The position numbers and the translations under genes are program-made. This document shows positions 8,695 to 53,052 of a DNA stretch of 64,000 nucleotides, one piece after another. The notes under the pieces were generated by a model. It did no database searches. It saw only the letters and a program-made list of their open reading frames with translations, and was not told where the DNA came from. Source of the stretch: Chloroflexota bacterium. Lineage in GTDB: Bacteria > Chloroflexota > Dehalococcoidia > JACQUD01. The stretch covers positions 20,800-84,799 of the forward strand of contig JACQUD010000059.1 in NCBI GenBank assembly GCA_016210485.1, written 5' to 3'. Each line of letters starts with the position of its first letter. The stretch's first letter is position 1.

Positions 8695-11600
8695 CTACCT
8701 TTGCTCTTCCAAAGGTGCTAGATATTGCGGCAGGGGCAGCACCGAGTAGTTCAAGGATGCGTTCTTCAGACATTCCACCACCACTCGGACTGTGTCCAGG
8801 GAAGTGAAGCAGGGAATTCGCATCTCCACGGCTGTTCGTCGGATCTCGAAGCCATCCTGCAAGGGGGTTCGTCCCCCGGTGAGGGTGTTGACCACCCCCT
8901 GGACTGTGCCATCTCGGATAATATCCACCACGTTGGGGCTGACCCCGGAGAGCCTCTTGCTGACCATGATGACAGGCAGGTTCAAGGCCTGGATCATAGC
9001 CGCCGTGCCCTCCGTGGCATAGAGGCGGTAGCCCACGGAGGCCAGGCCCTTGATGAGGGGGATGGCCTCGGGCTTATCCCGGTCGGCAATGCTAAGGAGG
9101 ATGCCGCCCTGGGGAGGCAGCATCAGCCCGGCGGCCAAGAGGGCCTTGGCCAGGGCAGGGGGATAGGAGTAGTCTATGCCCATAACCTCGCCGGTGGACT
9201 TCATCTCCGGCCCCAGATAAGTGTCCACCCCGGTGAGCTTGGACATGGAGAAGACGGGGGCCTTCATGGCCACCAGCTTCTGTTGCGGCCAGAGCCCGCC
9301 GATATACCCCTGCTCTTTGAGGCTTCGTCCCAGCATCACTTGGGTGGCTACTCGAACGATGGGAACCCCGGTGGCCTTGGACAGGAAGGGGACGGTGCGG
9401 CTGGCCCTGGGGTTGACCTCCAGCACATATACAGAGGAGCCCCGCCCATCCCCATTGACCATGATGACCATCTGGACGTTCATCAATCCCTTCACCTGAA
9501 GGGCCAAGCCGATGCGGGTGGTGTAGTCCACGATGGTGTCTGCCTCCTCGGCGGTGAGGCTCAGGCCGGGATAGACGGCGATGGAGTCGCCGGAGTGCAC
9601 CCCAGCCCGCTCGATGTGCTCCATGATGCCGGGGATGAGGACCAGCTCGCCGTCGGCGATGGCGTCCACTTCCACCTCCCTACCCTGGAGGTATTTATCC
9701 ACCAGGATGGCCCGGCCTCCCCCGGCCTCCGCAGCCATCTCCAGATAGCGGATAAGCTCCGAGGCATTATACACAATCTCCATGGCCCGCCCTCCCAGGA
9801 CATAGCTAGGGCGCACCAGGACGGGGTAGCCGATGGCCTGGGCCACCTGGAGGGCCTCGTCCACGGTGTTCACCACCCCTCCGGGGGGTTGGGGTATGCC
9901 CAGCCGAGCGGCGAAGTCCTCGAAGCGGCCCCGGTCCGAGGCGATGTCTATGGCCTCAGCGCTGGAGCCCAGGATGGCTAGGCCGGCCCGGGCCAGGGGC
10001 AGGGCCAGGTCTATGGCCGTCTGCCCCCCGAACTGGACGATGGTCGGGGGAGAGCCACCCTCTCCCGCCTCGTTCTCCAGGATGTCCCGCAGGCTCTCTT
10101 CGTCCAGAGGCTCGAAGTAGAGGCGGTCTGAGGTATCGAAGTCCGTGGACACCGTCTCTGGGTTGGAGTTGACCATGATGGCCTTGTGGCCTGCCGACTG
10201 CAAGGCCCAGGCGGAGTGGACGCTGCAGTAATCGAACTCTATCCCCTGGCCGATGCGGATAGGCCCCGACCCTACCACCACCGCCTTGGCGCCCTCCAGG
10301 GGCAGGGCCTCGTTCTCCTGCTCATAGGTGCTGTAGAAATAGGGGGTCAGGGCCTCAAACTCGGCGGCGCAGGTGTCCACCATCTTGTAAACTGGGCGTA
10401 TCCCCCAGCCCTGGCGGGATGCGCGCACCTGCTCGGGGAGGCGATCGGCCAGGGTGCCTATCTGGACATCGGAGAAGCCCAGCCGCTTGGCCTGCCTCAG
10501 AAGGTCGGGGGTAAGCGGCTCGGAGAGGAGGCGTTTCTCCATTTGGACTATTCCCAGGAACTGGGTCGGAAACCAGGGGTCGATGCCGGTGCGTCCGGCC
10601 AGGGACAGCGGCTCGGCCCCCCGACGCAGCGCCGCCATGAGTGCCCAGAGGCGAATATCGTTGGCCTCCAGAGGGAGAGCATCCGTCCCTTTCTCCCGCC
10701 ATTCGCGGTCCTCCCACAGGAGGGAGCGCCGCCCGAACTCCAGGGAGCGCACCGCCTTTTGCATAGCAGCGGAGAAGCATCGGTCTATGGCCATGGTCTC
10801 CCCCGTGGACTTCATCTGGGTGCCCAGGTCGCGCTCCCCCAGGCTGAACTTATCGAAGGGCCAGCGGGGTATTTTGACCACACAATAGTCCAGGGCCGGC
10901 TCGAAGGCAGCCCGAGTCTTGCCGGTGACGGCGTTAGGAATCTGGTCCAGGGTCTTGCCCACGGCGATCTTGGCCGCTACCCGGGCGATGGGGTAGCCCG
11001 TGGCCTTGGAGGCCAGGGCCGAGGAGCGGCTCAGCCGGGGGTTGACCTCGATGACGTGGTAGGGAGCGGGGCCGCTCCAGGCCGGCACGTCGAAGGCTCT
11101 GGCCACCTCCGGGTGGGGGGCCAGGGCGAACTGAATGTTGCATCCGCCCTCGATGCCCAGGGCCCGGATGATCTTCAGTGAGGCGCTGCGCAGCATCTGG
11201 TACTCCTTGTCGGAGAGGGTCTGGCTGGGAGCCACCACGATGCTATCCCCGGTATGGATGCCCATAGGGTCCAGGTTCTCCATGTTGCACACGGTGATGC
11301 AGTTGTCGGCGCCATCCCGCATCACCTCGTACTCCACCTCTTTCCAGCCCTGGAGGTATCGCTCCAGGAGGACCTGATGGATGGGGCTGGCCGAAAGCCC
11401 CCCGGCCACCACTTCCTCCAACTCCTCCCAGGTGCGGGCGATGCCTCCCCCCGTCCCCCCCAGGGTGTAGGCGGGGCGCACCACCAGGGGCAGGCCCAGG
11501 CTCTTAGCCACGGACCGAGCCTCCTCCAGGGAGGTAACCGTCCGGCTCTCGGGCACCGGCTCGCCTATCTCCTGAAGGAGGTCCTTGAAAAGCTGGCGGT

Positions 11601-11973
11601 CCTCGGCCTTCCTTATGGACTCGATGGGGGTGCCCAGGGAGCGGACGCCATATTTGTCCAGGACGCCGGCCTGGGCCAGGGCCACGGCCATGTTCAGGCC
11701 CGTCTGGCCACCCATGGTGGGGAGCAGGCCATCGGGCCGCTCCCGCTCTATGATGCGGGCCACCGCCTCCACGGTGAGAGGCTCGACGTAAACGATGTCG
11801 GCGATGCCCTGGTCGGTCATGATGGTGGCCGGGTTGGAGTTGACCAGGACGGAGATGACTCCCTCCTCGCGGAGGGCCTTGCAGGCCTGGGTGCCGGCGT
11901 AGTCGAACTCCGCCGCCTGCCCGATGATTATCGGGCCGGAGCCGATGACCAGGACCTTGGGGGGCTTAGGCAT
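8695..11973 (-). CDS. carB: Carbamoyl-phosphate synthase large subunit
   Basis: 1092-aa [41 protein letters not shown]..., duplicated ATP-grasp halves, MGS-like C-terminus. Confidence 0.97.
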
Positions 11974-11981
11974 GTTTTCTT

Positions 11982-12506
11982 TTAATCATTCGGCCTCTCC
12001 CGCACGATGGCCGCCTCATAGACCAGGGGGTTGCACCGGCGATAGTCTATCTCCCCTTTGTGGTTCAGCACCGACTCCTCGGCGTGGACCGCTACCACCT
12101 CGGCGATGAAGAGCAGGTGGGAGCGCAGGTCGATAGTGTGAGTGAGGCGGCACTCGATGTTGATGGGGCAGGCGGCCACCAGGGGGGCCTTCACTTTGGC
12201 TGCCGGGGATAGGGCCAGGCCGGTCCGAGCCACCTTATCAGTGTCCCGGCCGGTGGTCGTCCCTATCAGGTGGATGGCGCTGAGCAGGGCCGGCGTGGGC
12301 AAATTTACGGTGAACTCCCCGCCCTCCTGGATGAGGCCCATCGAGTAGCGGCCCCGGCGCAGGGACATGGCGACCTGGGGCGGCTCGGCAGCTACGGAGG
12401 CGATGCGGTTGACAGCCAGGAGGTTGGGCTTCTCCAGGGTGCCGCAGACTACGATGACCAGGGGCACCGGATAGAGCACTGTGTTGGGTTCCAGAAGCCT
12501 TTTCAA
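11982..12506 (-). CDS. Flavin reductase-like domain protein (NADH:FMN oxidoreductase family)
   Basis: 174 aa, [11 protein letters not shown]... flavin-reductase fold. TTG start with strong RBS ggaggggtgaggtga. Only 8 nt upstream of carB. Confidence 0.75.
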
Positions 12507-12654
12507 ATCACCTCACCCCTCCGAAAGCTTTCAGCTTTGCGGAGTCCGATGAGTGCGACGTCATCGGACCTCGGTCCCCCTCTCCTGGAAAGAGAGGGGG
12601 AGGAGAAAAAGCTGGGGACACCCCCAGGCCCCCGACTGAGAAGTTCCCGTCCTC

Positions 12655-13521
12655 TTACTTCTCTCTGCAATAGATTTCCCCTGTCTTCGAAGCAAGCGAA
12701 ACCCTGTCAAGCAGCAGCTCTTCAAGACTGTGTCTTCCCTCCAGTACCAACACGATGTCTTGACCATCCAAGAGTATGATTTTTTGTTCCTTGCCCTCTT
12801 TCAGCGCTTCAACTGCACCCGTGGAATAGCCATTAACCGAAATAAAGAACCCACTTGCGATATGGAACTTTCCTTCGACTTTACCTCGAAACTCATACAA
12901 TGGAGCCGTCGAAACAGGCTTGTCTGTCCAAGTAGCCTCAACCAAGAAGATGTTACTACCAAGCCAGAAGCTGCCATCGATCTGTTCACCCCTCGTATTG
13001 AAAGGCGCGCCCATCTTCAGCCCAAACGCACTCCAAAGCTCCTGCAAGAAATCCTGGAAGCGATAGCCTCGCTTCTGATGATCAGATTCCGCGATAATGC
13101 TTCTAAATGAATCATTCAGTTGAGCAAATTGGGCGGCCGTCTCTACTGCCTTGTCTTTGTCACTAGCCTTACCTGGCTGTCCCTTGCTTTCTGTCACCTT
13201 CTCCCGCACCAGCACATCCAAATTGGTAGCTACGCGACTGCTCTCATTCAGCCATTTATGCATTGCAACCACGCAACGTGTGTTTCCCGTGTTTACGAGG
13301 TCTCGCAACACTCCGTCGACCACAGCGCGCTTGGAAGGTCCATAAACCCATGCCAAGCCCTTCTTTTGAGAAACGGGATACCGAGCGATAATATTGGCTG
13401 GGACACCACAATCCCGGAAAAATGTTCTTAATTCACGGTGCGATAGCTGGACAAGCTGTGTGCTCAAAAATTGAATCAGTTGATATTCCTGGTCCGTGAG
13501 CATTCTAGCCTGCTTGTCCAT
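12655..13521 (-). CDS. Restriction-endonuclease-like protein: N-terminal domain of unknown function fused to C-terminal Mrr-cat (PD-(D/E)xK) nuclease domain
   Basis: C-terminal ~150 aa match the Mrr catalytic domain layout (…EQIDGSFWLGSNIFLVEATWTDKP… ILLDGQDIVLVLEG). GC is clearly lower than flanks. Start taken at MDKQ (13521) with RBS ggagagggaagg; the track ORF extends into the carA-derived repeat. Confidence 0.65.
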   Translation of the reverse strand: MDKQARMLTDQEYQLIQFLSTQLVQLSHRELRTFFRDCGVPANIIARYPVSQKKGLAWVYGPSKRAVVDGVLRDLVNTGNTRCVVAMHKWLNESSRVATNLDVLVREKVTESKGQPGKASDKDKAVETAAQFAQLNDSFRSIIAESDHQKRGYRFQDFLQELWSAFGLKMGAPFNTRGEQIDGSFWLGSNIFLVEATWTDKPVSTAPLYEFRGKVEGKFHIASGFFISVNGYSTGAVEALKEGKEQKIILLDGQDIVLVLEGRHSLEELLLDRVSLASKTGEIYCREK

Positions 13522-13532
13522 GACCTTCCCTC

Positions 13533-13585
13533 TCCACAAACCTCTGGAGCACATACACATTGTCCAGGGGGCCAGGGGAGGCCTC
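13533..13585. repeat. Direct repeat copy 1 (degenerate duplicate of the carA 3' end), left boundary of the VapBC cassette
   Basis: ctccacaaacctctggagcacatacacattgtccagggggccaggggaggcctc versus 14251..14303, about 4 mismatches in 53 bp. Confidence 0.75.
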
Positions 13586-13598
13586 CATCCGCTCCATG

Positions 13599-13988
13599 TC
13601 AGGCACTCTCCGCCCCGTGCAGCTTCACGCCCGGGATAGTCTGGAAGTGGCGATCCAAGGCAAATATGGTGCCGTCATTCTCTATGGCCAGGGCAGCCAC
13701 CAGCAGGTCTGTGAGCGGTATCAGGCGACCCCGGTTGCGTAGATGAAAAGCCATCTCCCCAGCCCTGGCCCAGGTATCCTGAGTTGCCTCCATATAGGGT
13801 AAGGCCCGCAGCACGCCCTCCAGCCGCAACCTTTCTCCCTCAGTGCGCGCACCTTGGAGCACCTCCGCCAGAACCACCCCCACCATTGAAACCTCCCCTT
13901 GCCTCAAAAGGTTGCCCACCGCCTGGCCCTCTGGCGAATCCGGCGATCTGAGAAAAGGGACCCAGGCTGAGGTGTCGACGATTACCAC
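13599..13988 (-). CDS. vapC: PIN-domain ribonuclease toxin VapC
   Basis: MVIVDTSAWVPFL... PIN acidic residues. Overlaps the upstream antitoxin by 7 nt. Confidence 0.85.
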   Translation of the reverse strand: MVIVDTSAWVPFLRSPDSPEGQAVGNLLRQGEVSMVGVVLAEVLQGARTEGERLRLEGVLRALPYMEATQDTWARAGEMAFHLRNRGRLIPLTDLLVAALAIENDGTIFALDRHFQTIPGVKLHGAESA

Positions 13989-14194
13989 TGCATCTCCTTG
14001 AGCTCCAACTCCTCCAGCTCTCTCCAGTTATCCACCAGGTCAACCTTGCCGGCCATACTGAAGAGCTCGTCGATCTTTTTGTTACGGAGATACTCCTCCA
14101 GAGCCTTGTTCACCGCCTTGCTCTTGCTCTTCTCCTTGGTGAGCTTGGTAACCTCTTCAACGAGCCTCTCATCCAACTCCAGAGTTGTGCGCAT
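13982..14194 (-). CDS. vapB: Type II antitoxin VapB (Rv0623/COG4423-like)
   Basis: MRTTLELDERLVEEVTKLTKEKSKSKAVNKALEEYLR... typical antitoxin N-terminus, 70 aa, coupled to vapC. Confidence 0.8.
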   Translation of the reverse strand: MRTTLELDERLVEEVTKLTKEKSKSKAVNKALEEYLRNKKIDELFSMAGKVDLVDNWRELEELELKEMQW

Positions 14195-14225
14195 TATTAT
14201 CCTCCATCAATTTGTCGCATCACTA

Positions 14226-15314
14226 TTATACATCATTCTTGCGCACCATATCCACAAACCTCTCGAACACATACACGTTGTCCAGGGGGCCAGGGGAGGC
14301 CTCGGAGTGGTACTGGATGGCGAGGATGGGCAACTCCCGGTGCCTCAGGCCCTCCACGGTGCCGTCGTTGAGGTTGATGTGGCTCACCTCTACCTGGGGG
14401 GGCAGGCTATCGCCGTCCACGGCGTAGCCGTGATTCTGAGCGGTGATGTAGACCCGGCCCGTCTGGAGGTCTTTGACGGGGTGATTTCCCCCCCGGTGGC
14501 CGAACTTGAGCTTGAAGGTCCGACCGCCGAAGGCCCTCCCCAGCATCTGATGCCCCAGGCATATCCCCAGGATAGGCACCTTCCCGATGAGGCCCTTCAC
14601 CGTCTGCTCCATGTAGCCCAGGAGGGCGGGGTCGCCGGGGCCGGGGGAGAGCACCACCCCTCTCGGCTCCAGGGCCAGGACATCCTCCGCCGAGGCCGTG
14701 GCCGGGACCACGGTGATGGCACAGCCCAGGCCCGACAGGAGGCGCAGGATGTTGAGCTTGAGGCCGCAATCGATAGCCACGATGTGCGGGCCATCGGGCG
14801 GCCCCTCCCAGCGATATAGCGAAAGAGTGGTCACTTGAGGAACGAAGTCTATGAAGTCGTAGCGAGGGACGACTTTGAGGCGCTCCAGGGCCTGCGCCGG
14901 CGACTCGTCCGAGGTGATGGTGCCCATCATGACGCCTTTGGTGCGTAGCTTGCGAGTAAGAGCACGGGTGTCCACACCACAGATGCCAGGGATGCCCTGG
15001 GACTTCAGGTAGTCGTCCAGCGTCCCCTGGCTCTGCCAGTGGCTGGGGATGAGGCAGGCCTCCCGCACCACCAGCCCCGCCGCCTGGATGTGCCGCGACT
15101 CTACAGCCTGATCGTTGATGCCGTAGTTGCCGATGAGGGGATAGGTGAGGGTCAGGATCTGTCCCCGGTACGAGGGGTCGGTGAGCATCTCCTGGTAGCC
15201 GGTCATGGAGGTGTTGAAGACGACCTCTCCCTGGGCCCGGCCCGCGGCGCCGAGGGAAAGCCCCTCGAAGACCGAGCCGTCCTCCAGGACAAGGAGGGCG
15301 CTAATGGGTGTCAT
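14226..15314 (-). CDS. carA: Carbamoyl-phosphate synthase small (glutamine amidotransferase) subunit
   Basis: MTPISALLVLEDGSVFEG... GATase triad region LGICLGHQ. Confidence 0.95.
   Translation of the reverse strand: MTPISALLVLEDGSVFEGLSLGAAGRAQGEVVFNTSMTGYQEMLTDPSYRGQILTLTYPLIGNYGINDQAVESRHIQAAGLVVREACLIPSHWQSQGTLDDYLKSQGIPGICGVDTRALTRKLRTKGVMMGTITSDESPAQALERLKVVPRYDFIDFVPQVTTLSLYRWEGPPDGPHIVAIDCGLKLNILRLLSGLGCAITVVPATASAEDVLALEPRGVVLSPGPGDPALLGYMEQTVKGLIGKVPILGICLGHQMLGRAFGGRTFKLKFGHRGGNHPVKDLQTGRVYITAQNHGYAVDGDSLPPQVEVSHINLNDGTVEGLRHRELPILAIQYHSEASPGPLDNVYVFERFVDMVRKNDV
14251..14303. repeat. Direct repeat copy 2 (inside the authentic 3' end of carA)
   Basis: atccacaaacctctcgaacacatacacgttgtccagggggccaggggaggcctc. 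Encodes the carA C-terminus …PLDNVYVFERFV. Confidence 0.75.
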
Positions 15315-15810
15315 GTTCGCCCCTGAGACGCACCAATCCTAACTCCGTTGCCCGTTGCTTGACCATCTTGTCTGCCTCAATAAAGTGATCCCATATCCTT
15401 ATTAACTCTGCCCTGCCGCTGGCATATAGCGAGGCAGCGTTTGTGAGGCCGATAAAGGGCGAAACTCCAGGCAGCCCATCCTCAAGAAAGAGAGCATTGT
15501 GGTCATACCAGTCCCTTGCTTCCTCGGCGAGTCGCTTTAAATCTACATTTTCTGCTGAGTCCGGCTGCTGCGGGTTAGCACGGCTAATAGCAACGTTGAG
15601 CTTCATTAACCAGGCGTAGGCTTGTTGCACACCAGTCAGTCGCTTCTCGAATAAGGTTCGTTTGTACCACTCCTGGTAGTCGTCACGCCGTTCAGTGGCC
15701 CTTTGCTGCTGGTCAGCCTTTCTGGCGCGGTCATTGAACCAAAGATTGATCAACGAGCCCAGCAATACTATGAAGCCACCGATCAAGGCGCCTTGTGCTG
15801 TCTCGTTCAT
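15301..15810 (-). CDS. Hypothetical single-pass membrane protein (169 aa) inserted between pyrC and carA
   Basis: Start MNETAQGALIGGFIVLLGSLINLWF (TM helix) at ATG 15810..15808, forming an ATGA overlap with the pyrC stop. 3' end overlaps the carA start by 14 nt. Lower GC than flanks. No recognisable domain. Confidence 0.55.
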   Translation of the reverse strand: MNETAQGALIGGFIVLLGSLINLWFNDRARKADQQQRATERRDDYQEWYKRTLFEKRLTGVQQAYAWLMKLNVAISRANPQQPDSAENVDLKRLAEEARDWYDHNALFLEDGLPGVSPFIGLTNAASLYASGRAELIRIWDHFIEADKMVKQRATELGLVRLRGEHDTH

Positions 15811-17127
15811 CCCTGGAACACCACCTTTCCCCCGTAGATGGTAGCCATGGCCTTGCCCCGGAGCACAGCCCCGGCCAGGAGGGTGTTCCTCCCCTTGGAG
15901 GCGAAGGCCTCCGGCTCCACCGTCCACTCCGCATCGGGGTCGAAGACAGTAACATCGGCGGGGGCGCCCGCCTGCAATGTGCCCAGGCCGGGGATGCCCG
16001 CCGCCTTGAGGATTCGAGCCGGGCCTGAAGTCAGGAGGGCGATGAGGTCGGGCAGCCCTATCTCCCCCCGGTGCACCAGGCCCAGGAGGAGGCCCAGGGC
16101 CGTCTCCAGCCCGCTGATGCCTGAAGCCGCCAGGTCGTACTCGCACTCCTTGTCCACCCGGGTATGAGGCGCGTGGTCGGTGGCGATGGCGTCGATGATG
16201 CCATCCTTCAGCCCCTGAATAAGGGCTGCCACGTCCTCTTTACTGCGCAGAGGCGGGTTGACCTTAGTCCGGGTATCGTAAGGGTGAAGGCCGGGGAAAT
16301 CCGGCGACTTGCCCAGGACCAGCTCGTGGGTCAGGGCCAGATGGTGGGGGGTGACCTCAGCGGTGATGGGCAGCCCCTTCTCCTTGGCCAGGCGCACCAG
16401 CTCCACCGAGCCGGCGGTGGATAGGTGCTGAAGGTGCACCCAGCCTCCTGTAAGCTCGGCCAGGAGGATGTCTCGGGCCACGGCCACCTCCTCAGCGGCG
16501 GAGGGCATCCCCTTGAGGCCCAGGCGGGTGGCCACCCAGCCCTCGTGCATGACGCCGCCCTGGGAGAGGCTGACATCCTGAGGGTGATCCATGATGGGCA
16601 GGCCCAGGGGGAGAGCATACTCCAGGGCGTGGCGCATAAGCCTGGTCGAGGCCACGGGGTCTCCGTCGTCGCTGAAAGCCACCGCCCCGGCTCCGGCCAG
16701 CTCCGCCATCTCCGCCAGCTCCTGGCCCTTTCGGCCCTGGCTAACACAGGCCACGGGCAGGACCCGGACAGCCCCCAACTCCGCCGCTCTCCGCAGCACG
16801 AACTCCACCGATGCCAGATTATCGAGGGGAGGATTGGTGTTGGCCATGCAGCAGACGGTGGTGAAACCGCCCCGGGCTGCAGCCAGCGTCCCCGTGGCGA
16901 TGGTCTCCTTCTCCTCGAAGCCCGGCTCCCGCAGGTGACAGTGGAGGTCGATGAACCCTGGACAGACCACGAGCCCTTTGGCGGGAAGAATTTGAGCAGG
17001 CTTCTGGGGAGGCGGCTCCCCGGGCTTGCCGACCCAGGCTACCTTACCCTCTGCCAGAAGGATGTCGCCAGGGGCATCCAGGCCCTGGGAGGGGTCTATG
17101 AGATGCCCGCCCCGGATGAGAAGGGCG

Positions 17128-17141
<14 letters not shown>
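15807..17141 (-). CDS. pyrC: Dihydroorotase
   Basis: MPRTDALLIRGGHLIDP... metal-binding DLHCHLREPG. Start chosen at M18 of the track ORF (17141); overlaps the pyrB stop. Confidence 0.9.
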
Positions 17142-18770
<1,629 letters not shown>

Positions 18771-37561: not shown

Positions 37562-37640
37562 CAGGCCCCCAGCGCTGTCTCAGCCTCCCCCGCACCCAGC
37601 CCGAAGCTGCCGGAGAGCATCATGTCGCCGTTGGGGAGCG
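37562..37640 (-). pseudogene. Decayed 3' fragment of a DUF1786-like gene (paralog remnant of the gene at 43837..44925)
   Basis: Minus strand encodes …SLPNGDMMLSGSFGLGAGEAETALGA*. Intact gene encodes …AIPHGDMMLSGSFGLVRAF…VVLGA*. About 30-nt near-identical DNA core (gagagcatcatgtcgccg). Confidence 0.35.
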
Positions 37641-37699
37641 AATTTTGATTGGCTTTGATACAATCAGGACAGCTAGTTAGAGTATCGAATGGATAGTTT

Positions 37700-38737
37700 A
37701 TGCGGACAGCTGCTATGACATCGATGGAACCAGGCTACATTGCCTTATATCGCTCGGGGGAGCTGGAGCGTCGGGCGCGAGCGCTGGAAGCCCGATTGGC
37801 CTCCTGCGATGTTTGCCCCAGGGAGTGCCGGTGCAACCGGTTAGAGAATGAGCTGGGTTATTGCCATTCAGGGCTTCTGCCCATAGTCTCGGCGGTCTGC
37901 GCTCATCTCGGAGAGGAGCCGGCTATTTCAGGAACCAGAGGGTCGGGGACAGTTTTCTTCGGCAATTGTAACCTGAGATGTGTCTACTGCCAGAATCACC
38001 AGATAAGCCAAGATCGGAGAAGGCAGCGGTCAAAGCAGATGGACTGCCATACCCTGGCTGAAGAGATGTTGTACCTCCAGAACGAGCTGGGCTGCCACAA
38101 CATTAACTTCGTCTCGCCATCCCATTTTGTGCCTCAGCTCCTCCGAGCGGTGCTGGAAGCGGTGCCTATGGGACTCAGAGTGCCTCTAGTATATAACACC
38201 AGCAGCTATGATTCTGTAGCATCCCTGAGAGAACTTGACGGAGTGATAAGTATTTACCTGCCTGATTTAAGATATGCCTCTGATGAGTGGGCCAAGAAGC
38301 TGTCAGGCGTGTCTGATTATGTGGAGCGAGCTCGTGAGGCTATCGCAGAGATGTATAGACAGGTGGGAGACCTATCGGTGGATAAAGCTGGCCTGGCGCA
38401 AAAGGGGCTGATCGTGCGCCACCTTGTGCTCCCCAACGGCCTGGCTGGCAGTGAGGAGTCGCTGACCTGGCTGGCCCGCCAGCTTTCCCCTACCGTGTCG
38501 GTCAGCTTGATGTCTCAATACAGGCCAGTGCACCGGGCGCTACGAATGCCGCTGCTGTCCAGGACGATCTCCTTCGGTGAATATGGAGCGGCCCTCCGGC
38601 TGCTAGCCGACTTGGGGCTAGAGAATGGCTGGGTGCAAGAGATGGGGGCATCGGAGGAATATCTCCCCGATTTTGAACGAGAGGGCCACCCTTTTCCCTC
38701 CATCCTTGAGACAACGGAGGAGCCTATACCTACGTGA
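37700..38737 (+). CDS. Radical SAM protein, PflX-like (pyruvate-formate-lyase-activating-enzyme homolog, COG1313)
   Basis: Two Cys clusters …CDVCPRECRCNRL… and …GNCNLRCVYCQN…. Confidence 0.82.
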   Translation: MRTAAMTSMEPGYIALYRSGELERRARALEARLASCDVCPRECRCNRLENELGYCHSGLLPIVSAVCAHLGEEPAISGTRGSGTVFFGNCNLRCVYCQNHQISQDRRRQRSKQMDCHTLAEEMLYLQNELGCHNINFVSPSHFVPQLLRAVLEAVPMGLRVPLVYNTSSYDSVASLRELDGVISIYLPDLRYASDEWAKKLSGVSDYVERAREAIAEMYRQVGDLSVDKAGLAQKGLIVRHLVLPNGLAGSEESLTWLARQLSPTVSVSLMSQYRPVHRALRMPLLSRTISFGEYGAALRLLADLGLENGWVQEMGASEEYLPDFEREGHPFPSILETTEEPIPT

Positions 38738-40062
38738 CCGATAAGCGTGTCATCGTGATCGGCGCCGGGGCCAGCGGCATGATAGCCGCTGGCCGGGCTG
38801 CCGAGCTGGGCGCCAACGTCCTTCTGCTGGAAAGAACCGAGCACCCAGGCCAGAAGATGCTCATCAGCGGCAAGACACGTTGCAACCTGACCAACGCCAA
38901 GGAACTCGACAACTTTATCTCCATGTATGGCCCTAACGGTCGTTTCCTTTATAGCGCTTTTCACCGCTTCTTTCGCGATGATTTGCTCGCCTTGTTGAAG
39001 CGCTACGGCGTGGAAACCAAGGCCGAGCGCGGCGGGCGAGTCTTCCCTGCCTCCGACGATGCCCGCGATGTAGTTAAAGCCTTGGAGCAGTACATGGCCG
39101 ACCACGGTGTCCAGCTACGCACCGATATCAGAGTAACTGGGATACAGGTCGATAGGGGGCGAGCGGTCGGCGTGCAAACGGAGACAGGGTCGCTCCCCGC
39201 AGCGGCAGTAGTTCTAGCTACCGGCGGCGCCTCATATCCCCAGACCGGCTCCACGGGCGATGGCTACCGGTTTGCCGCCACCCTCGGCCATACCATCACC
39301 AGGCTGCGCCCGGCTCTGGTTCCCCTGGTCGTCCATGAAGTCCAGCGGGTCAAAAGTATGCAGGGCGTCAGCCTGCGCAATGTGCGCCTGACGGCATATC
39401 AGTGCCCCGCCGATGACATCAACCCTTCTCTGGCCCCGGCCAGCGACTGGGGGCGCGGCATGAGCGGCAAGCAACCGCCCTGGCCTATCATCGAAAGCCG
39501 CATGGGGGAGATGATGATAACCCATTTCGGCATCGGCGGGCCTGTAACTTTGCTCATGAGCTTGGCGATAGTAGACGCCCTGGAGAATGGGCCGGTCAGC
39601 GTGTCTATCGACCTGAAACCCGCCCTGGACGAAAAGCAACTGCGCCAACGGCTGCAGCGGGACTTCGATAGCTATGCCAAGCGGAGCTACAGGAACGTCC
39701 TTAAGGGACTATTGCCGCAAAAGATGATTGACCCTTTCGTCGAGGCTACCGCCATCCCGCCGGACAAGCCCGGCCATCAGATAAGCTCCGAGGAGCGCGA
39801 GCGCCTGTTATGCCAGCTCAAATCGCTGCGCTTCAACATCGTGGGGCCGTTGCCGATGGCCTCCGCCATGGTGACCGCTGGCGGCGTCTCCCTCAGGGAA
39901 ATCGACCCCCGCACCATGGCCTCCCACCTAGTCGAGGGACTCTATTGTTGCGGCGAGGTGCTGGACGTAGATGGCGACACCGGCGGCTACAACCTGCAGG
40001 CTGCCTTCTCTACAGGATATGTGGCTGGCGAGGAGGGCGCCGTTAGAAGCTTAGGCCGGTGA
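38734..40062 (+). CDS. HI0933/BaiN-family NAD(P)/FAD-dependent flavoprotein
   Basis: MTDKRVIVIGAGASGMIAAGRAAELG… and characteristic C-terminal …GGYNLQAAFSTGYVAG. ATGA overlap with the upstream gene. Confidence 0.88.
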   Translation: MTDKRVIVIGAGASGMIAAGRAAELGANVLLLERTEHPGQKMLISGKTRCNLTNAKELDNFISMYGPNGRFLYSAFHRFFRDDLLALLKRYGVETKAERGGRVFPASDDARDVVKALEQYMADHGVQLRTDIRVTGIQVDRGRAVGVQTETGSLPAAAVVLATGGASYPQTGSTGDGYRFAATLGHTITRLRPALVPLVVHEVQRVKSMQGVSLRNVRLTAYQCPADDINPSLAPASDWGRGMSGKQPPWPIIESRMGEMMITHFGIGGPVTLLMSLAIVDALENGPVSVSIDLKPALDEKQLRQRLQRDFDSYAKRSYRNVLKGLLPQKMIDPFVEATAIPPDKPGHQISSEERERLLCQLKSLRFNIVGPLPMASAMVTAGGVSLREIDPRTMASHLVEGLYCCGEVLDVDGDTGGYNLQAAFSTGYVAGEEGAVRSLGR

Positions 40063-40153
40063 TTACTTAGGGATATATGAACGCCGAAGGATTGGGGGGT
40101 CTTTCCATATATCTAACCCCTGGGCGATGGCCCTACCTATTTGGGAATGTTAA

Positions 40154-41668
40154 CTAGCTGTCGTTTCTTTTCTCAAAGTTTCGCAGGGTTTTATCCAGTT
40201 TATCTGAAGAAACATCCTCTTCTTCTGCATCAGCAGATTCTTTGGGTACGAACGAATCGCTGGAAACGCGCCGCAATCCGGGGTTAAGTTGCGTAGCAAA
40301 CGTAAGGCTACCGGACGATACAACTTTGCGGTATTTCCCAAGCTCACCTGTAATTACTGTAAGATGAACAGGCTTGCCTGTCTCCTTGAATTTTCTCTCC
40401 ACAATCTCAGCCACGGCATCGAACAAAGGTATTGACGGATGCTCATAACCCCATTCTGTTAGGGCAAATTTGCCTTTGACACCAATCCAAACCATGCCGT
40501 GCTGCTCGCGGCTCAGCACAGCGTGAATGTTACGTTCGGAGGACGGGTCATCCGGAAACATTGAATTGTAAACTAAGGAAATCTCTGAATAGTGCGCTGG
40601 TCTCCCGATGTGTCGAAGTACGGTATATACTTTTTGGGCCTTAGTTACGCGACTCCATACGGGTTGAGTTGCACTCTCAGCAAGAGTCTTAACGTCATTG
40701 GCCAGAAGGCACAGATTGCCTTTGGAATCTAAAAACTTCGCTATTGACTCTGGGTCAACTTCGTGCGGGTGCCATTCCCAAGGTCCGAGTTCCTGGACAT
40801 CCTTTGACGAAGCCCCTAAGATCACGATTTTTAGCTCGGGTAGCTCCGCAATGGGAATGCCCGCGCATTTGGCGGCGAATCTCCTGAGAGATGCCTGCAA
40901 AGAATCAGTGACGACAACAAGACTACCCTCTGCGCGCATAACATCACATAAGAATGCGCGGAGAAACACCCTGCGATTGTAACGCTGTATGAACCTTTTT
41001 CGCGCCTTATCCTCTAATTGGCGAACTCTCTCTCTGGTAACTCCAAGCCAACTACCAATCTCTTCAAGAGTCATTCTTCTCTCTACGCCGAAGCCTTCTC
41101 TAGCTAGCACAACTTGAACAAGTCTCCGTTCGAGTTTGGAAAGCGCTTCTCCGAGTGCTTCCTCTAACGGCTGGTTCAAGGCAGTAGCACGTACTTCAAT
41201 GTCTGCCAAGCTTTTCAGCAACTTGGTGGCATCTTCAAGGGCGAACAGTGATAAGTAGGAGAGAATATGTGCCAAGGGAAAGCAGTATTGGGCGGGTGTC
41301 CAAGCAGGGCCTACAAATCCGAAGCGCTCCCCAAAGTGCAAAGCCTCCTTCGAGAAAAATTCCCAACGACCAGTGGGGCGCAGGGAATTCATGAGACGCG
41401 TTAACTCACGTTCCGTCAGCCTTGCTTTGTGCGCCTGTGCCATTCTAATGTTCAGGCTGACAAACCACAGAAAGAGAGTTTTCTCTGGGACGAACCAATC
41501 CTCCTTCTCTCGACACAACGAAATATACCGAGAATCGTTAGCGAGAGCGCGTCGCACTGTCTCAGTGTCGATGTCTGATTGTGTGTAGTCAACAACTTCC
41601 GAAACGCTCAAGGCGTACGGCCGTGATGCGAAGGTTTCCAGAGTCTGAGCAATATGCTGCGTATCCAT
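40154..41668 (-). CDS. Sigma-70 region-4 HTH protein with C-terminal HARE-HTH-like winged helix (504 aa); island-1 component
   Basis: Central RRMTLEEIGSWLGVTRERVRQLEDKARKRF is a classic sigma-70 r4 HTH. C-terminal …KVYTVLRHIGRPAHYSEISLVYNSMFPDD…MVWIGVKGKFALTEWGY fits the HARE-HTH pattern. Low GC (~45-50%). Confidence 0.65.
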   Translation of the reverse strand: MDTQHIAQTLETFASRPYALSVSEVVDYTQSDIDTETVRRALANDSRYISLCREKEDWFVPEKTLFLWFVSLNIRMAQAHKARLTERELTRLMNSLRPTGRWEFFSKEALHFGERFGFVGPAWTPAQYCFPLAHILSYLSLFALEDATKLLKSLADIEVRATALNQPLEEALGEALSKLERRLVQVVLAREGFGVERRMTLEEIGSWLGVTRERVRQLEDKARKRFIQRYNRRVFLRAFLCDVMRAEGSLVVVTDSLQASLRRFAAKCAGIPIAELPELKIVILGASSKDVQELGPWEWHPHEVDPESIAKFLDSKGNLCLLANDVKTLAESATQPVWSRVTKAQKVYTVLRHIGRPAHYSEISLVYNSMFPDDPSSERNIHAVLSREQHGMVWIGVKGKFALTEWGYEHPSIPLFDAVAEIVERKFKETGKPVHLTVITGELGKYRKVVSSGSLTFATQLNPGLRRVSSDSFVPKESADAEEEDVSSDKLDKTLRNFEKRNDS

Positions 41669-41681
41669 AGTAGCAGATCGG

Positions 41682-42164
41682 TTAGACGGGAAAATCGCCC
41701 TTCAAGAGCCTTTCAGCAACCTTGCGCGTCCCCTTTTCGCAACGCCCCCAGTTTAATGAGGAGGGGATGAGTTCTTCTTTTACTAAATAGCGACGCAAGA
41801 TAACCACCTTCTCGAGCCATTTTCGCTTTACACCCAGGTCTCGAACTAGATGGTCGTAAAACCCGTCTATCTGAAGTGATATATGTTCTAGGTTGTCTCT
41901 TAGCCCAAACATAGTATCTCCGAGCTGCCAGATCTTTCTGGCAGGCGTAGGCGTATGATTCTTCCTAAACGCCTGTATCTCCGCTAACAACAGACGCATT
42001 GTTCTAATAGAGCGCGAATACGAATCAGCAGCGTTTTGCAAAACAGAACTTGGATCACTTTCCATTGAGATGATCCCATCAATAGAGAGAAACGCCATGA
42101 ATACTCCATCTCTAGGTTCAAAACACACAAAGGTCAGCTTGGGCGAGGTCACCTTTTCCCCCAA
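41682..42164 (-). CDS. Small partner protein (160 aa) of GHKL ATPase copy 1; paralog of 54573..55043
   Basis: Overlaps the GHKL gene by 16 nt. Alignable to the copy-2 partner (…IWQLGDTMFGLRDNLEH…LVRDLGVKRKWLEKVVILRRYL… vs …IYWLAGDEILSFLRRMDDLG…LARDVGVHESLLKRVISFRRRF…). Possible C-terminal HTH. Confidence 0.6.
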   Translation of the reverse strand: MGEKVTSPKLTFVCFEPRDGVFMAFLSIDGIISMESDPSSVLQNAADSYSRSIRTMRLLLAEIQAFRKNHTPTPARKIWQLGDTMFGLRDNLEHISLQIDGFYDHLVRDLGVKRKWLEKVVILRRYLVKEELIPSSLNWGRCEKGTRKVAERLLKGDFPV

Positions 42165-43675
42165 GCAGCCATCATTTTATCTAGGAACATAAGGTCTTGG
42201 GCCTCGCCCTCGCCAGCTAAGAATCTCTGGATGGCACTTCCTATGGCAAAAAGACTGTGGAGCCTTCTTGCTGTGCTATCGGTTCGAGCTTTCACATAGG
42301 ACGGATGCCCACTATTGATAACTACGCTATTGCCGTCCACCCAGGCTAAGTCCACTCTGGTAGGAGCTTCGGCGAAGGCGATTTTGGGACCTCGGCGTCC
42401 TGTTCGGCTGATGGGGGCAGCCGTCTCGTTTCCCTTCTCTTGATTTTGAACAAGCGCTTCGCCAGGCTCATTTCCTACATCGACAGGACTTGGGCCGTCT
42501 CCTCCGTTGCCTTCCCCGATGGGGAAAGTCTCCTCGGTCCCTTCTTGGATATCGGCTTTGATTGGGCCGCTATCGTTAGCTTGGAGAACGTCCTTCTTGG
42601 CGCGAAACCCAAAGAAATCTGCTAGCTCCGGAACATCTTTCACGAGCTTCTTAAGCTCCCGTTCTAGCTTCTCCGCTTCATCCGTACCTCCAATATCCAA
42701 AGACTGGATGCCCAGTGCTGCTAGCCAATTCTTGAACTCCACTCGAACAGGGTTATATAGACTTTCGAATTCTCTATGTTTCCCACGGCCACGGATAAAG
42801 TCCGTCTTAGCCGTGGTCAAGAAGTTAACAAATTTGGGAATCTCCACCAATCCGAAGATCCTCGGCCCAAGACTTCCCGGAAATTGATTAAAGAGGTCTG
42901 CTTTAATGACCTTGCCATAGGTGCACAGCAAAACACCACAAACATCTCCCCCGGCCGGGTACTCGGACGCAGCCAGGCCGAGAACGCCATAGCCTATCCT
43001 TTTGCCAACTCTAGTAGGGAAGAATTTCTTAACCATATCGAGGCTGAAGTCCCTCTCTATGTTACTAGGTATGACGGCCTGTCCGTTGACAGTGAATCTG
43101 AGATCGCTGGGGTAGTAGCCCATGCTCTTGTACAAGTCTAGGAACTGCATATCCAGAAGGGGAAGGTAGTGGTGGCGCAATAGTTTGATTAAGTCCTCAG
43201 ATGAAGAATACGAGACTCTTGTTTCTGCCCCAAATCTCACTTCTACCCTCGTGCCAGTTCCTGATAGATGCGTAGGTTGGATATCCTCCCATAACAGTTT
43301 TCTCTTCGACTCCAAATGCCAATTAGAACCACTAGAAAACATTTCACTGCGGGTCTCAGTGATCACCCTGTCCGAAATATTGAAGCTAATCTTTGCACCA
43401 ACACCGGCAAAGCCTATGCCTGTTCCTCGGGTCTTAAGACCAGCGGCGAAATCGTGGTACTCCTTGAACTGCGAATCGGTCATACCCTTGCCGTTATCGG
43501 CTACAACAAGGACTCTGTGATCAGTGTCATAAGAGATAGAAATACGTGATGCTCTAGCATCCAGAGCATTAGCCACGAGTTCCACAAACACTATCTCAGC
43601 TACTTCAAACGGGTACATTTCGGCTAAATCCCGAATCAGATTTTGGAAGTTCACGCTACTTTCGTGTGTACCCAT
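42149..43675 (-). CDS. GHKL (Bergerat-fold) ATPase of the MORC/MutL/Hsp90 class, copy 1 (508 aa)
   Basis: Motif I ELVANALDA, G1 DNGKGM, G2 GTGIGFAGVGAK, MutL/Hsp90-like GTGTRVEV. C-terminal acidic/Gly linker then …VVINSGHPSYVKA…. Start at internal ATG 43675 (RBS gagga), consistent with promoter TTGACT-18-TATACT at 43741..43770; the track ORF extended upstream. Confidence 0.75.
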   Translation of the reverse strand: MGTHESSVNFQNLIRDLAEMYPFEVAEIVFVELVANALDARASRISISYDTDHRVLVVADNGKGMTDSQFKEYHDFAAGLKTRGTGIGFAGVGAKISFNISDRVITETRSEMFSSGSNWHLESKRKLLWEDIQPTHLSGTGTRVEVRFGAETRVSYSSSEDLIKLLRHHYLPLLDMQFLDLYKSMGYYPSDLRFTVNGQAVIPSNIERDFSLDMVKKFFPTRVGKRIGYGVLGLAASEYPAGGDVCGVLLCTYGKVIKADLFNQFPGSLGPRIFGLVEIPKFVNFLTTAKTDFIRGRGKHREFESLYNPVRVEFKNWLAALGIQSLDIGGTDEAEKLERELKKLVKDVPELADFFGFRAKKDVLQANDSGPIKADIQEGTEETFPIGEGNGGDGPSPVDVGNEPGEALVQNQEKGNETAAPISRTGRRGPKIAFAEAPTRVDLAWVDGNSVVINSGHPSYVKARTDSTARRLHSLFAIGSAIQRFLAGEGEAQDLMFLDKMMAAWGKR

Positions 43676-43740
43676 GTTATCCTCGTTTAGATAATTCAAA
43701 ATATGACAATTTAAACCGTCGGACACCCGCTCCCGGGGCC

Positions 43741-43770
43741 AGTATAAGCCCGCCCCGAAAGCAGAGTCAA
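43741..43770 (-). promoter_or_regulatory. Candidate promoter of GHKL module 1 (TTGACT - 18 nt - TATACT, minus strand)
   Basis: Hexamers read on the minus strand about 65 nt upstream of the GHKL ATG. Confidence 0.4.
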
Positions 43771-43836
43771 TTGTTTGCGATGAGGGTTGGAATGGGATAT
43801 ATCCCAAAATGCCCTGACGGGCGCAAAATGGGGAGA

Positions 43837-52963: not shown

Positions 52964-53052
52964 CTTTTTTGTAAGTAATCAAGGGTATTTTGGAGCTTAT
53001 AGAGATAAGCTTAAGGGCATTGCCCATAGAGGTAGTTGAGTGTAGGTGTCTT

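What the first reader, a model, noticed from the sequence alone, without database searches (positions are those of the whole stretch)
13533..14303. VapBC cassette bracketed by a 53-bp imperfect direct repeat derived from the carA 3' end
Positions 13533..13585 and 14251..14303 share about 49/53 nt (…ccacaaacctctNgaNcacatacacNttgtccagggggccaggggaggcctc). Copy 2 encodes the real carA C-terminus (…PLDNVYVFERFV…). Copy 1 is a degenerate duplicate (…PLDNVYVLQRFV…) that now provides the RBS region and spurious N-terminal extension of the Mrr-like gene. The intervening 665 bp is exactly vapB-vapC. This looks like an att-like target duplication. The cassette apparently integrated into the 3' end of carA while regenerating a functional carA end, in the manner of integrative elements at tRNA 3' ends, yet no integrase is present.
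Basis: seen in the sequence. Interest (0 to 1): 0.65.

Follow-up and report, generated by a model that had tools for sequence, protein, structure and literature searches.

The report
Repeated carA gene end flanking vapBC
The repeat is real: a leftover second copy of the last ~55 bases of the housekeeping gene carA sits after a toxin-antitoxin pair, and related Chloroflexota carry two to four such copies separating small toxin-antitoxin and defence genes, marking a gene-insertion hot spot with no integrase in view.

Summary
Window 13533-13585 and 14251-14303 match at 50/53 nt (58 nt at 91%); no shuffle gives a second match. Two independent assemblies carry the identical arrangement. Copy 2 is the working carA end. 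Copy 1 is a decaying pseudo-end just upstream of an orphan, low-GC Mrr-like nuclease gene.

The att-like interpretation is partly supported. carA-vapBC adjacency is widespread in Chloroflexota. However, the window's VapB and VapC are far more diverged from those of its closest relative than CarA is, so the cassette has been exchanged. Four other genomes (L086, L088, L176, L177) have a carA-end copy after vapC. L177 has four copies separating hicAB, vapBC, hicB and abiJ cassettes. L028 brackets a different gene.

Three things argue against a dedicated integrase or an integron:
- No recombinase domain was found in any ORF of 90 aa or more across the 64 kb.
- The repeat forms no hairpin.
- The left ends of the copies vary, and each copy keeps its own short tail and stop codon.

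Copies differ from the resident carA mostly by synonymous changes, so they were recently working carA ends. I favour homology-driven additive recombination in the conserved carA end. A recombinase acting in trans is the main rival. Novelty: new variant of a known kind.

The parts
14226..15314 (-). carA, carbamoyl-phosphate synthase small subunit, 362 aa
   Evidence: Pfam CPSase_sm_chain plus GATase. 100% identical to an NCBI MAG Chloroflexi protein, P0001.
14246..14303 (-). Repeat copy 2: the functional carA 3' segment, encoding EASPGPLDNVYVFERFVDM
   Evidence: It agrees with the carA ends of relatives.
14195..14254 (-). Last 8 carA codons (MVRKNDV*) plus a 31-nt spacer. This is the probable vapBC promoter/operator: TGGATA-18-TATAAT, with the -10 box overlapping the carA stop codon and TGATG repeats in the spacer.
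   Evidence: Promoter scan gives the best site in the region, 10/12. The GTATAAT-plus-spacer sequence is conserved upstream of vapB in L083, L086, L088, L176, L177 and L093.
13982..14194 (-). vapB antitoxin, 70 aa
   Evidence: Pfam VapB_antitoxin, E = 4e-12.
13599..13988 (-). vapC toxin, PIN domain, 129 aa. It overlaps vapB by 7 nt.
   Evidence: Pfam PIN, E = 8e-12. The acidic residues D5, E42, D94 and D112 are invariant or nearly so in the alignment.
13528..13585 (-). Repeat copy 1: a carA pseudo-3'-end (EASPGPLDNVYVLQRFVE..) that is decaying. Its 3' end supplies a Shine-Dalgarno-like GGAGAGGGAAGG for the Mrr-like gene.
13505..13597 (-). Open 30-codon frame through copy 1: MERMEASPGPLDNVYVLQRFVEREGHGQAG*. 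Its ATG lies 1 nt after the vapC stop. Its stop TAG is followed 1 nt later by an alternative Mrr start ATG at 13503.
   Evidence: Frame walk and direct reading. Whether it is translated is unknown.
12655..13521 (-). Mrr-like restriction endonuclease gene, 288 aa, about 49% GC. An orphan.
   Evidence: Pfam Mrr_cat, GC profile. The only homologue above 38% identity is itself, NCBI HY676_04560.
12604..12633 (-). Terminator-like hairpin CTGGGG-GTGT-CCCCAG followed by CTTTTTCT, downstream of the Mrr-like gene
   Evidence: Terminator scan.
11982..12506 (-). Flavin reductase-like gene of native GC content, lying between the cassettes and carB
   Evidence: Pfam Flavin_Reduct. Absent from this position in 80 relatives.
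8695..11973 (-). carB, the distal conserved flank of the variable region
   Evidence: ORF and tblastn synteny.

Best explanation
Copy 1 is a recombination scar: a former or duplicated 3' end of carA left behind when DNA was added, rather than swapped, at the carA-carB junction. That junction is a hot spot for small accessory genes in this Chloroflexota lineage.

The incoming unit begins inside the conserved last ~55 nt of carA. It carries its own short carA tail and stop codon, then its cargo. Here the cargo is vapBC, whose promoter -10 box overlaps the carA stop. Recombination within the conserved carA end joins the unit to the resident carA. This could be a single Campbell-type crossover with a circularised fragment, or a homologous anchor in carA with an illegitimate joint at the other end. 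The result is one working carA and, after the cargo, a second carA end with no job.

Repeating the process stacks units. Each unit is preceded by a carA-end copy, which gives the 2-4-copy arrays seen in relatives. Host homologous recombination is sufficient, so no element-encoded integrase is required.

In the window the array is carA | vapBC | pseudo-end | Mrr-like nuclease. The two copies came from nearly identical carA genes, either the same species or the same chromosome. Copy 1 has since drifted.

Shown: the repeat, its recurrence in other genomes, its boundaries, the substitution pattern, the cassette replacement and the absence of a recombinase domain among ORFs of 90 aa or more in the window.

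Inferred: the recombination route and the order of arrival.
For: 1. Recurrence. nhmmer with a profile of the repeat finds more than one copy in the window, L028, L086, L088, L176 and L177. L177 has four copies separating hicAB, vapBC, hicB and abiJ.

2. Boundaries. All copies stop being alignable just after ..GAG-NTG-GTG. Each then has its own 2-10-codon tail and stop codon (RS*, RK*, WR*, KDA*, GGKELG*). This mirrors the naturally variable ends of carA in 80 relatives. Left ends vary, at about -78, -73 and -54 to -69 relative to the end of the stop codon, and at -95 or further upstream in L028.

3. Substitutions. Copies versus the resident carA end show 29 synonymous and 10 non-synonymous differences, pN/pS 0.10, binomial p = 1e-11. 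L176 is 7:0 and L177 copy 4 is 5:0. Synonymous divergence (pS 0.36-0.54) is as large as between carA genes of different genomes. The copies were therefore working carA ends until recently.

4. Exchange between lineages. The L088 copy carries the L176 carA haplotype, and the L176 copy carries the L086/L088 carA haplotype.

5. Cassette exchange in the window lineage. Window versus L083: CarA 81%, but VapC 56% and VapB 61%. In the L086/L088/L176 clade, CarA is 81-87%, VapC 82-87% and VapB 93-97%. Nucleotide identity between window and L083 drops from 75-89% to 57-69% at about 14211.

6. The mechanism is not specific to one target. L028 brackets a binding-protein gene with an 89-nt carA-end repeat that has different boundaries. 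The window itself holds a second case at a DUF1786 gene, 43902-43943 vs 37596-37637.

7. No recombinase. No integrase or transposase domain was found in any of the ORFs of 90 aa or more that were scanned across the window, nor in the called genes of L083, L086 and L178.

8. No structure. The repeat forms no hairpin on either strand (z of 0.2 or higher).
Against: - No empty site and no circular intermediate has been seen.
- Only a handful of genomes carry the copies. L086, L088 and L176 are related to each other, so there may be only 3-4 independent events.
- In the window, L176 and probably L086, the copy starts at the same GAGGC. All copies end near the same GGTG. A site-specific enzyme would also explain this.
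- A recombinase encoded elsewhere in the genome cannot be excluded from a 64-kb window of a MAG.
- Homologous recombination on 40-60 nt is inefficient.
- The synonymous bias could instead reflect selection on a translated micro-ORF, because an in-frame ATG precedes every copy that follows vapC.
- L083, L173, L174, L178, L011 and L053 have vapBC after carA without any copy.
Confidence: 0.5

Rival explanations
1. Site-specific recombination by a recombinase acting in trans. The carA end would be an att site (attI- or attB-like). Each cassette would carry a matching site, and integrations would accrete in tandem. The integrase-less units would be mobilisable only with a helper, as with cis-mobilizable elements, tandem ssrA islands or Xer-dependent modules.
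For: Direct repeats bracket the cassettes, and the target gene end is regenerated. L177 has a four-copy tandem array of one- and two-gene cassettes, mostly toxin-antitoxin or defence genes and all co-oriented. The repeat's right end lies within a few nucleotides of GGTG in six different cassettes, and its left end is at GAGGC in three genomes. Chloroflexota are known to build tandem islands at ssrA with a serine recombinase (PMC3146451).
Against: No recombinase domain was found in any ORF of 90 aa or more in the 64-kb window or in the related loci inspected. The left ends of the repeat vary, and L028 uses other boundaries. The right end coincides with where carA genes naturally stop being conserved, and each copy keeps its own tail and stop, so no fixed crossover point is needed. 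Wobble positions vary freely while the amino acids are kept, which is the opposite of what a protein-binding DNA site would show. The repeat has no palindrome or hairpin. The same kind of duplication occurs at an unrelated gene in the window. No match to the repeat was found in viral contigs.
Confidence: 0.28
2. The carA-end copy after vapC is a functional element kept by selection. It could be a translated micro-protein that mimics the C-terminal helix of CarA, or a coupling leader that delivers ribosomes to the next gene. The duplication mechanism would then be secondary.
For: Every copy that follows vapC lies in an open frame with an in-frame ATG at or overlapping the vapC stop. This holds in the window, L086, L088, L176 and L177 copy 3, and the frames are 26-32 codons long. 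The frame ends at or next to the start of the downstream gene: ATGA overlap in L086, TAGAATG in the window. Comparisons among the L086, L088 and L176 copies show 16 synonymous and 2 non-synonymous differences.
Against: The window's own copy has 2 synonymous and 5 non-synonymous differences, so it looks neutral. The 5' part of the L086 copy is frame-scrambled. Copies that follow hicB have only GTG or TTG starts. Many carA-vapBC genomes lack the copy. The haplotype sharing with foreign carA genes explains the synonymous bias without any function. The ATG in the L086 clade comes from the vapC codons for ..LYE.
Confidence: 0.1
3. The Mrr-like gene, not vapBC, is the newcomer. A fragment from a conspecific strain in which Mrr directly followed carA would have been joined illegitimately behind vapC, dragging along the last ~55 nt of the donor's carA. 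Recombinants that replaced vapBC would have been lost to toxin-antitoxin addiction.
For: The Mrr-like gene is an orphan with about 49% GC and its own terminator, so it looks recently acquired. carA-vapBC is the widespread arrangement. The two repeat copies are lineage-identical apart from drift in copy 1.
Against: The vapBC pair itself is not vertically inherited relative to L083. The same left end, GAGGC, in L176 and the window would be a coincidence. No donor allele is known. This is a variant of the best explanation rather than a distinct mechanism.
Confidence: 0.1
4. Chance similarity or assembly artefact.
For: None beyond the GC-rich composition.
Against: No shuffle of 100 gave a second match. 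Two independent assemblies are identical across both copies. The repeat is in the reading frame of a conserved protein motif.
Confidence: 0.01

Closest known systems
Tandem ssrA genomic islands of Dehalococcoides (PMC3146451)
   Same: Same phylum. Islands stack downstream of a single-copy essential gene, and each boundary is marked by a direct repeat of that gene's 3' end. Some units lack integration genes, and accretion has been proposed for them.
   Different: Those repeats are 20 bp of a tmRNA gene with a defined insertion point, and most islands carry a serine recombinase module (DsiB). Here the repeat is 40-60 nt of protein-coding sequence, the units are 0.5-1 kb with one or two genes, the array sits inside the pyrimidine operon, and no recombinase was found.
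Cis-mobilizable elements and accretion at the 3' end of fda in Streptococcus thermophilus/salivarius (my own knowledge; the topic is covered in PMC7563491)
   Same: Integration into the 3' end of a housekeeping protein gene, with that end regenerated. Units without an integrase are flanked by att repeats and arranged in tandem.
   Different: Those units derive from ICEs and use a known tyrosine integrase with a short att core of about 27 bp. No helper element or core site could be identified here.
Integrons and CALINs, clusters of attC sites lacking an integrase (PMC4889954)
   Same: Co-oriented arrays of small, mostly promoterless cassettes rich in toxin-antitoxin genes. A repeated element lies at every cassette boundary.
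   Different: attC sites are structured imperfect palindromes, conserved in fold rather than sequence, and recombined by IntI. This repeat is unstructured coding sequence and no IntI was found.
Tycheposon-remodelled islands of Prochlorococcus (bioRxiv 10.1101/2020.12.28.424599)
   Same: Successive integrations at one site push older units inward. Partial copies of the target gene are scattered through the island.
   Different: The targets are tRNA genes, and the elements encode tyrosine recombinases and replication modules.
Acinetobacter dif modules (PMC6449649, PMC13141974)
   Same: Small modules, often toxin-antitoxin pairs, without their own recombinase, bounded by repeated recombination sites and shuffled between replicons.
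   Different: Those modules are bounded by 28-bp XerC/XerD sites in alternating orientation on plasmids. No dif-like site is evident here, the repeats are direct, and they are derived from a gene.
Campbell-type single-crossover insertion, homology-facilitated illegitimate recombination, and Neisseria 'minimal mobile elements' (established knowledge)
   Same: Foreign DNA enters using homology to a conserved flanking gene, with no element-encoded enzyme. A single crossover duplicates the homologous segment. Hot spots lie between conserved genes.
   Different: These are described mainly from experiments or as straightforward replacements. I know of no description of natural multi-copy arrays of a gene's 3' end separating toxin-antitoxin and defence cassettes.

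Membership tests
Type II toxin-antitoxin system VapBC | PIN-domain toxin with the conserved acidic residues | tested here: met
   Pfam PIN, E = 8e-12. D5, E42, D94 and D112 are invariant or nearly invariant in the 16-sequence alignment.
Type II toxin-antitoxin system VapBC | Small antitoxin gene immediately upstream and overlapping, with its own promoter/operator | tested here: met
   VapB_antitoxin, E = 4e-12, with a 7-nt overlap with vapC. A sigma-70-like site and TGATG repeats lie upstream. Toxicity and neutralisation cannot be tested with these tools.
Integrase-mediated integrative element at a gene 3' end (att duplication) | Direct repeat of the target's 3' end at both borders, with the target gene regenerated | tested here: met
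Integrase-mediated integrative element at a gene 3' end (att duplication) | Integrase or recombinase encoded in or next to the element | tested here: not met
   No recombinase domain in any ORF of 90 aa or more in the 64 kb, nor in L083, L086 or L178. A recombinase elsewhere in the genome is not excluded.
Integrase-mediated integrative element at a gene 3' end (att duplication) | Unoccupied site in close relatives | tested here: inconclusive
   The closest relative has only 81% CarA identity and carries vapBC without the repeat. The Mrr-like gene is an orphan.
Integrase-mediated integrative element at a gene 3' end (att duplication) | One fixed crossover site shared by all events | tested here: inconclusive
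   The right ends cluster at GGTG, but that is also where carA conservation naturally ends. Left ends vary, and L028 differs at both ends.
Integron / CALIN | attC sites: imperfect palindromes that fold as single strands | tested here: not met
   DNA folding of four copies on the top strand and two on the bottom strand gives z-scores of 0.24 to 1.87, no better than shuffles.
Integron / CALIN | intI integrase next to attI | tested here: not met
   pyrC, a small hypothetical gene and carA lie upstream. No tyrosine recombinase was found in the window.
Transposon or insertion sequence with target-site duplication | Transposase, terminal inverted repeats and a short (2-15 bp) duplication | tested here: not met
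   No transposase domain was found. No inverted repeats bound the 718-nt unit. The duplication is 53-58 nt.
Xer-dependent dif modules / IMEX | 28-bp XerC-spacer-XerD sites at module borders | tested here: inconclusive
   Inspected by eye only. GGTGCGCA at the repeat/tail junction resembles the first 8 nt of the E. coli dif XerC arm, but the spacing to TGTATA does not fit and no XerD arm is present (reading). The Chloroflexota dif consensus was not available.
Campbell-type or homology-facilitated insertion scar | The duplicated segment is the region of homology between the incoming DNA and the target. Copies carry donor or recipient haplotypes, and no specific site is needed. | tested here: met
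   Haplotype sharing with foreign carA genes and a synonymous-only divergence pattern. Boundaries and targets vary. RecA dependence cannot be tested with these tools.

The most novel reading that the evidence does not exclude
The conserved last ~55 nt of carA may serve as the shared docking sequence of a recombinase-free cassette system, a 'pseudo-integron' run by host homologous recombination. Units made of a carA end plus a toxin-antitoxin or defence gene would loop out between two copies and re-enter any related genome through its own carA end. They would stack into arrays inside the pyrimidine operon, and the toxin-antitoxin cargo would penalise their loss. The swapped haplotypes in L088 and L176 would be footprints of such excision and re-entry cycles.
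Probability: 0.22. Interest if true: 0.75.

Novelty: new variant of a known kind. Interest (0 to 1): 0.5.

Why it matters
If the recurrent arrays are real mobile units, they show how toxin-antitoxin and anti-phage genes can spread among uncultured Chloroflexota without carrying any integrase. The units would borrow the conserved end of an essential gene as their docking sequence, and they would sit inside a core biosynthetic operon.

The finding also has practical value for annotation. The pseudo-end creates false N-terminal extensions; the 301-aa Mrr ORF is one example. Pseudo-3'-ends of this kind can also be used as markers to find insertion hot spots in MAGs. For this single window taken alone, the feature is a modest scar.

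Tried and rejected
- **Empty site.** A genome-contig scan with CarA gave only relatives at 70% identity or less. The protein database gave one relative at 81% and the rest at 73% or less. The Mrr-like protein has no close homologue. No empty site could be obtained.
- **Metagenome scan with a VapC profile.** Only L093 was informative.
- **Third copy in the window.** Sensitive local alignments of the Mrr/flavin-reductase spacer, the flavin-reductase/carB junction and the pyrC/hyp/carA junctions scored no better than shuffles.
- **attC-like structure.** Rejected.
- **Viral or plasmid-like carrier.** A degenerate pattern for the repeat found nothing in viral contigs. VapC relatives in viral contigs are at most 32% identical.
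- **Apparent carA-tail repeats in L021 and L065.** These turned out to be palindromic REP-like elements, not gene-end copies.
- **Homology between the genes after the copies.** The Mrr-like gene and AbiJ are unrelated.
- **One ancient duplication kept similar only by gene conversion.** I considered this. It does not explain copies that match foreign carA haplotypes better than their own.
- **Literature.** Searches for carA as an integration site or for such arrays in Chloroflexi found nothing specific.
Full report
**The observation**

The window carries a direct repeat at 13528-13585 and 14246-14303, 58 nt long and 91% identical, with 718-nt spacing. None of 100 dinucleotide-preserving shuffles produced a second match. 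Similarity ends abruptly on both sides.

All genes here are on the minus strand, in this order:

| Gene | Coordinates | Note |
|---|---|---|
| pyrR-like | 18126-18680 | |
| pyrB | 17128-18129 | |
| pyrC | 15807-17192 | |
| hypothetical | about 15301-15783 | low GC |
| carA | 14226-15314 | |
| vapB | 13982-14194 | |
| vapC | 13599-13988 | |
| Mrr-like nuclease | 12655-13521 | about 49% GC, against about 65% around it |
| flavin reductase-like | 11982-12506 | |
| carB | 8695-11973 | |

Copy 2 encodes the genuine CarA C-terminus, EASPGPLDNVYVFERFVD, followed by MVRKNDV*. Copy 1 reads EASPGPLDNVYVLQRFVEREGHGQAG* in the same frame. Two independent Logan assemblies hold the whole arrangement at 100% identity, so it is not an assembly artefact.

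**vapBC next to carA is common**

tblastn over 80 Chloroflexota loci found vapB-vapC homologues directly or closely after carA in L011, L031, L053, L047, L037 and L028. The carA-carB gap in general holds a changing set of small genes. They include:
- a GDPD gene;
- GNAT-like genes;
- signal peptidase genes;
- GIY-YIG-like genes;
- a UDG-like gene.

The closest relative available has 81% CarA identity (P0002, locus L083). It has carA, a 31-nt spacer, vapB and vapC in the same layout. Its DNA aligns colinearly with the window from carA through the spacer and into vapB. The last codons of carA, its stop codon and the spacer form the best sigma-70-like site of the region: TGGATA, 18 nt, TATAAT, with the -10 box overlapping the stop. 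This GTATAAT-plus-TGATG-repeat segment is conserved upstream of vapB wherever the pair occurs.

**The cassette has been exchanged**

In the L086/L088/L176 clade, CarA identities of 81-87% go with VapC at 82-87% and VapB at 93-97%. Between the window and L083, CarA is 81% but VapC is 56% and VapB 61%. Those values are no better than against distant lineages. Sliding nucleotide identity between the window and L083 stays at 75-89% through pyrB, pyrC and carA. It then falls to 57-69% from about position 14211 onward. At least one of the two lineages has replaced its vapBC, with the breakpoint at the carA end.

**The carA-end copy recurs in other genomes**

| Locus | Source | Arrangement and copy |
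|---|---|---|
| L086 | GCA_016190485.1 | carA-vapBC, then a 53-nt carA-end copy immediately before an AbiJ-like gene |
| L088 | | a 54-nt copy |
| L176 | | a 62-nt copy reading EASPGPRDNVYIFDRFLELVRS* |
| L177 | same sample as the window, different genome | four copies: carA end, hicAB, copy, vapBC, copy, hicB, copy, abiJ |
| L028 | a sponge-associated Chloroflexi MAG | an 89-nt carA-end repeat (98%) brackets a periplasmic binding-protein gene; vapBC lies further downstream |

A profile of the repeat finds more than one hit only in these loci and the window. L083, L173, L174, L178, L011 and L053 have vapBC without a copy.

**Anatomy of the copies**

In an alignment of 13 copies, all are alignable up to ..GAG-NTG-GTG. 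After that point each has its own short tail and stop codon: RS*, RK*, WR*, KDA*, GGKELG*, RKNDV*. Genuine carA genes of relatives also end 1-10 variable codons after ..EMV(R). The common right end therefore needs no fixed crossover point. Each copy simply looks like a complete natural carA end.

Left ends differ between copies: about -78 in the window, -73 in L088, -54 to -69 in L177, and at -95 or further upstream in L028. The repeat forms no hairpin on either strand.

**Substitution pattern**

Copies compared with the resident carA end show 29 synonymous and 10 non-synonymous differences. This gives pN/pS of 0.10 and a binomial p of 1e-11. Synonymous divergence (pS 0.36-0.54) is as high as between carA genes of different genomes. 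L176 is 7:0, L177 copy 4 is 5:0 and L088 is 7:1.

The L088 copy shares a four-site synonymous haplotype with the carA of L176. The L176 copy shares its haplotype with the carA of L086 and L088. The copies were therefore working carA ends, often of another lineage, until recently.

The window's copy is the exception, at 2 synonymous to 5 non-synonymous. Its three core differences are all derived relative to L083. It otherwise shares lineage-specific bases with copy 2. It arose from the same or a nearly identical carA and has since drifted.

**Search for a recombinase**

I scanned every ORF of 90 aa or more in the window against Pfam. None has an integrase, resolvase or transposase domain. The called genes of L083, L086 and L178 have none either. 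No viral contig carries the repeat motif or a close VapC.

**Interpretation**

The data fit a hot spot where units of the form 'carA end + cargo' are added by recombination within the conserved carA end. Each event leaves a redundant carA end behind. Repeated events build arrays.

The variable left ends, the natural tails, the free wobble positions and the foreign haplotypes all favour host homologous recombination. So do the different boundaries in L028 and the second, unrelated case in this window. The route could be a Campbell-type single crossover or a homologous anchor with an illegitimate joint. I put this at about 0.5.

A recombinase acting in trans remains a serious rival, at about 0.28. 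The reasons are the clustered ends, the integron-like look of L177, and the precedent of tandem ssrA islands in Dehalococcoides (PMC3146451).

A functional micro-ORF is a minor possibility. Every copy that follows vapC lies in an open frame with an in-frame ATG at the vapC stop.

The order of arrival of vapBC and the Mrr-like gene cannot be settled. The array logic puts the newest unit next to carA. Against that, the Mrr-like gene looks the more foreign of the two.

- The reading of the two copies is correct.
- The claim that the carA end is regenerated by the incoming unit is supported.
- 'No integrase' is confirmed for the ORFs of 90 aa or more across the whole window.
- The specific tRNA-style att mechanism is unproven and not favoured.
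- vapBC is a long-standing tenant of this site that has been swapped, not a newcomer.

**Novelty**

Tandem accretion of integrase-less units at a gene's 3' end is known from several systems:
- ssrA islands;
- cis-mobilizable elements at fda;
- tycheposon islands;
- dif modules;
- CALINs.

I found no description of arrays of single toxin-antitoxin or defence genes separated by copies of the coding end of carA inside the pyrimidine operon. I class it as a new variant of a known kind, of moderate interest.

Noticed in passing
window 37596-37637 and 43902-43943 (segment between: 37638-43901): A second gene-end duplication. 42 nt (93%) from the 3' part of a DUF1786 gene (43837-44925, minus strand; reads ..HGDMMLSGSFGL..) recur 6.3 kb downstream as ..NGDMMLSGSFGLGAGEAETALGA*. 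The two copies bracket low-GC genes (a GHKL-type ATPase at 42149-43807, a 160-aa ORF, and a Sigma70_r4 protein at 40154-41668) together with a HI0933-like gene and a radical SAM gene.
   Followed up: partly
window 52990-55043: A low-GC pair (GC3 0.46-0.49), a HATPase_c_3 protein of 531 aa plus a 156-aa ORF, is wedged between recR (52046-52651) and recO (55043-55852). It is a paralogue-like twin of the pair at 41682-43807 and may be a defence module.
   Followed up: no
window 15301-15783 (minus strand): A low-GC gene with no Pfam match sits between pyrC and carA and overlaps the carA start. Homologues occupy the same position in L016, L069 and L074 (37-47% identity).
   Followed up: partly
L177 1-2529: A four-copy array of the carA end separates hicAB, vapBC, hicB and abiJ cassettes. 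It comes from the same sequencing run (SRR12113390) as a contig of the window organism. The contig is only 2.5 kb, so the distal end of the array is unknown.
   Followed up: yes
L178 11800-12240: After an intact vapBC next to carA there is a second vapB-like frame and a fragment of a vapC C-terminus (..EHFQRIPGLKLYEAGSA*). This is a decayed tandem vapBC, with no carA-end copy.
   Followed up: no
window 12577-12600; L021 about 9526-9563; L065 about 9218-9238: Palindromic elements of the form CCCCTCTCC-loop-GGAGAGGGG occur in the Mrr/flavin-reductase spacer and in or after carA tails of other Chloroflexota. In L021 and L065 they even extend the carA reading frame. They may be a REP-like repeat family.
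   Followed up: no
L093 1-1600: A UDG-family gene reads through a remnant of the carA tail and vapBC promoter segment (..GATGTGATGTATAAT..) just upstream of vapB. An RNase_H_2-family gene follows vapC before carB, as in L083.
   Followed up: partly
L083 9810-10163: In the closest relative, VapB carries a 45-residue, low-complexity C-terminal extension. vapC starts 55 nt downstream instead of overlapping vapB.
   Followed up: no
window 13503-13521: The start of the Mrr-like gene is ambiguous. The NCBI record uses the ATG at 13521 (288 aa). An ATG at 13503 lies 1 nt after the stop of the frame that runs through copy 1 (TAGAATG), an arrangement typical of translational coupling.
   Followed up: partly
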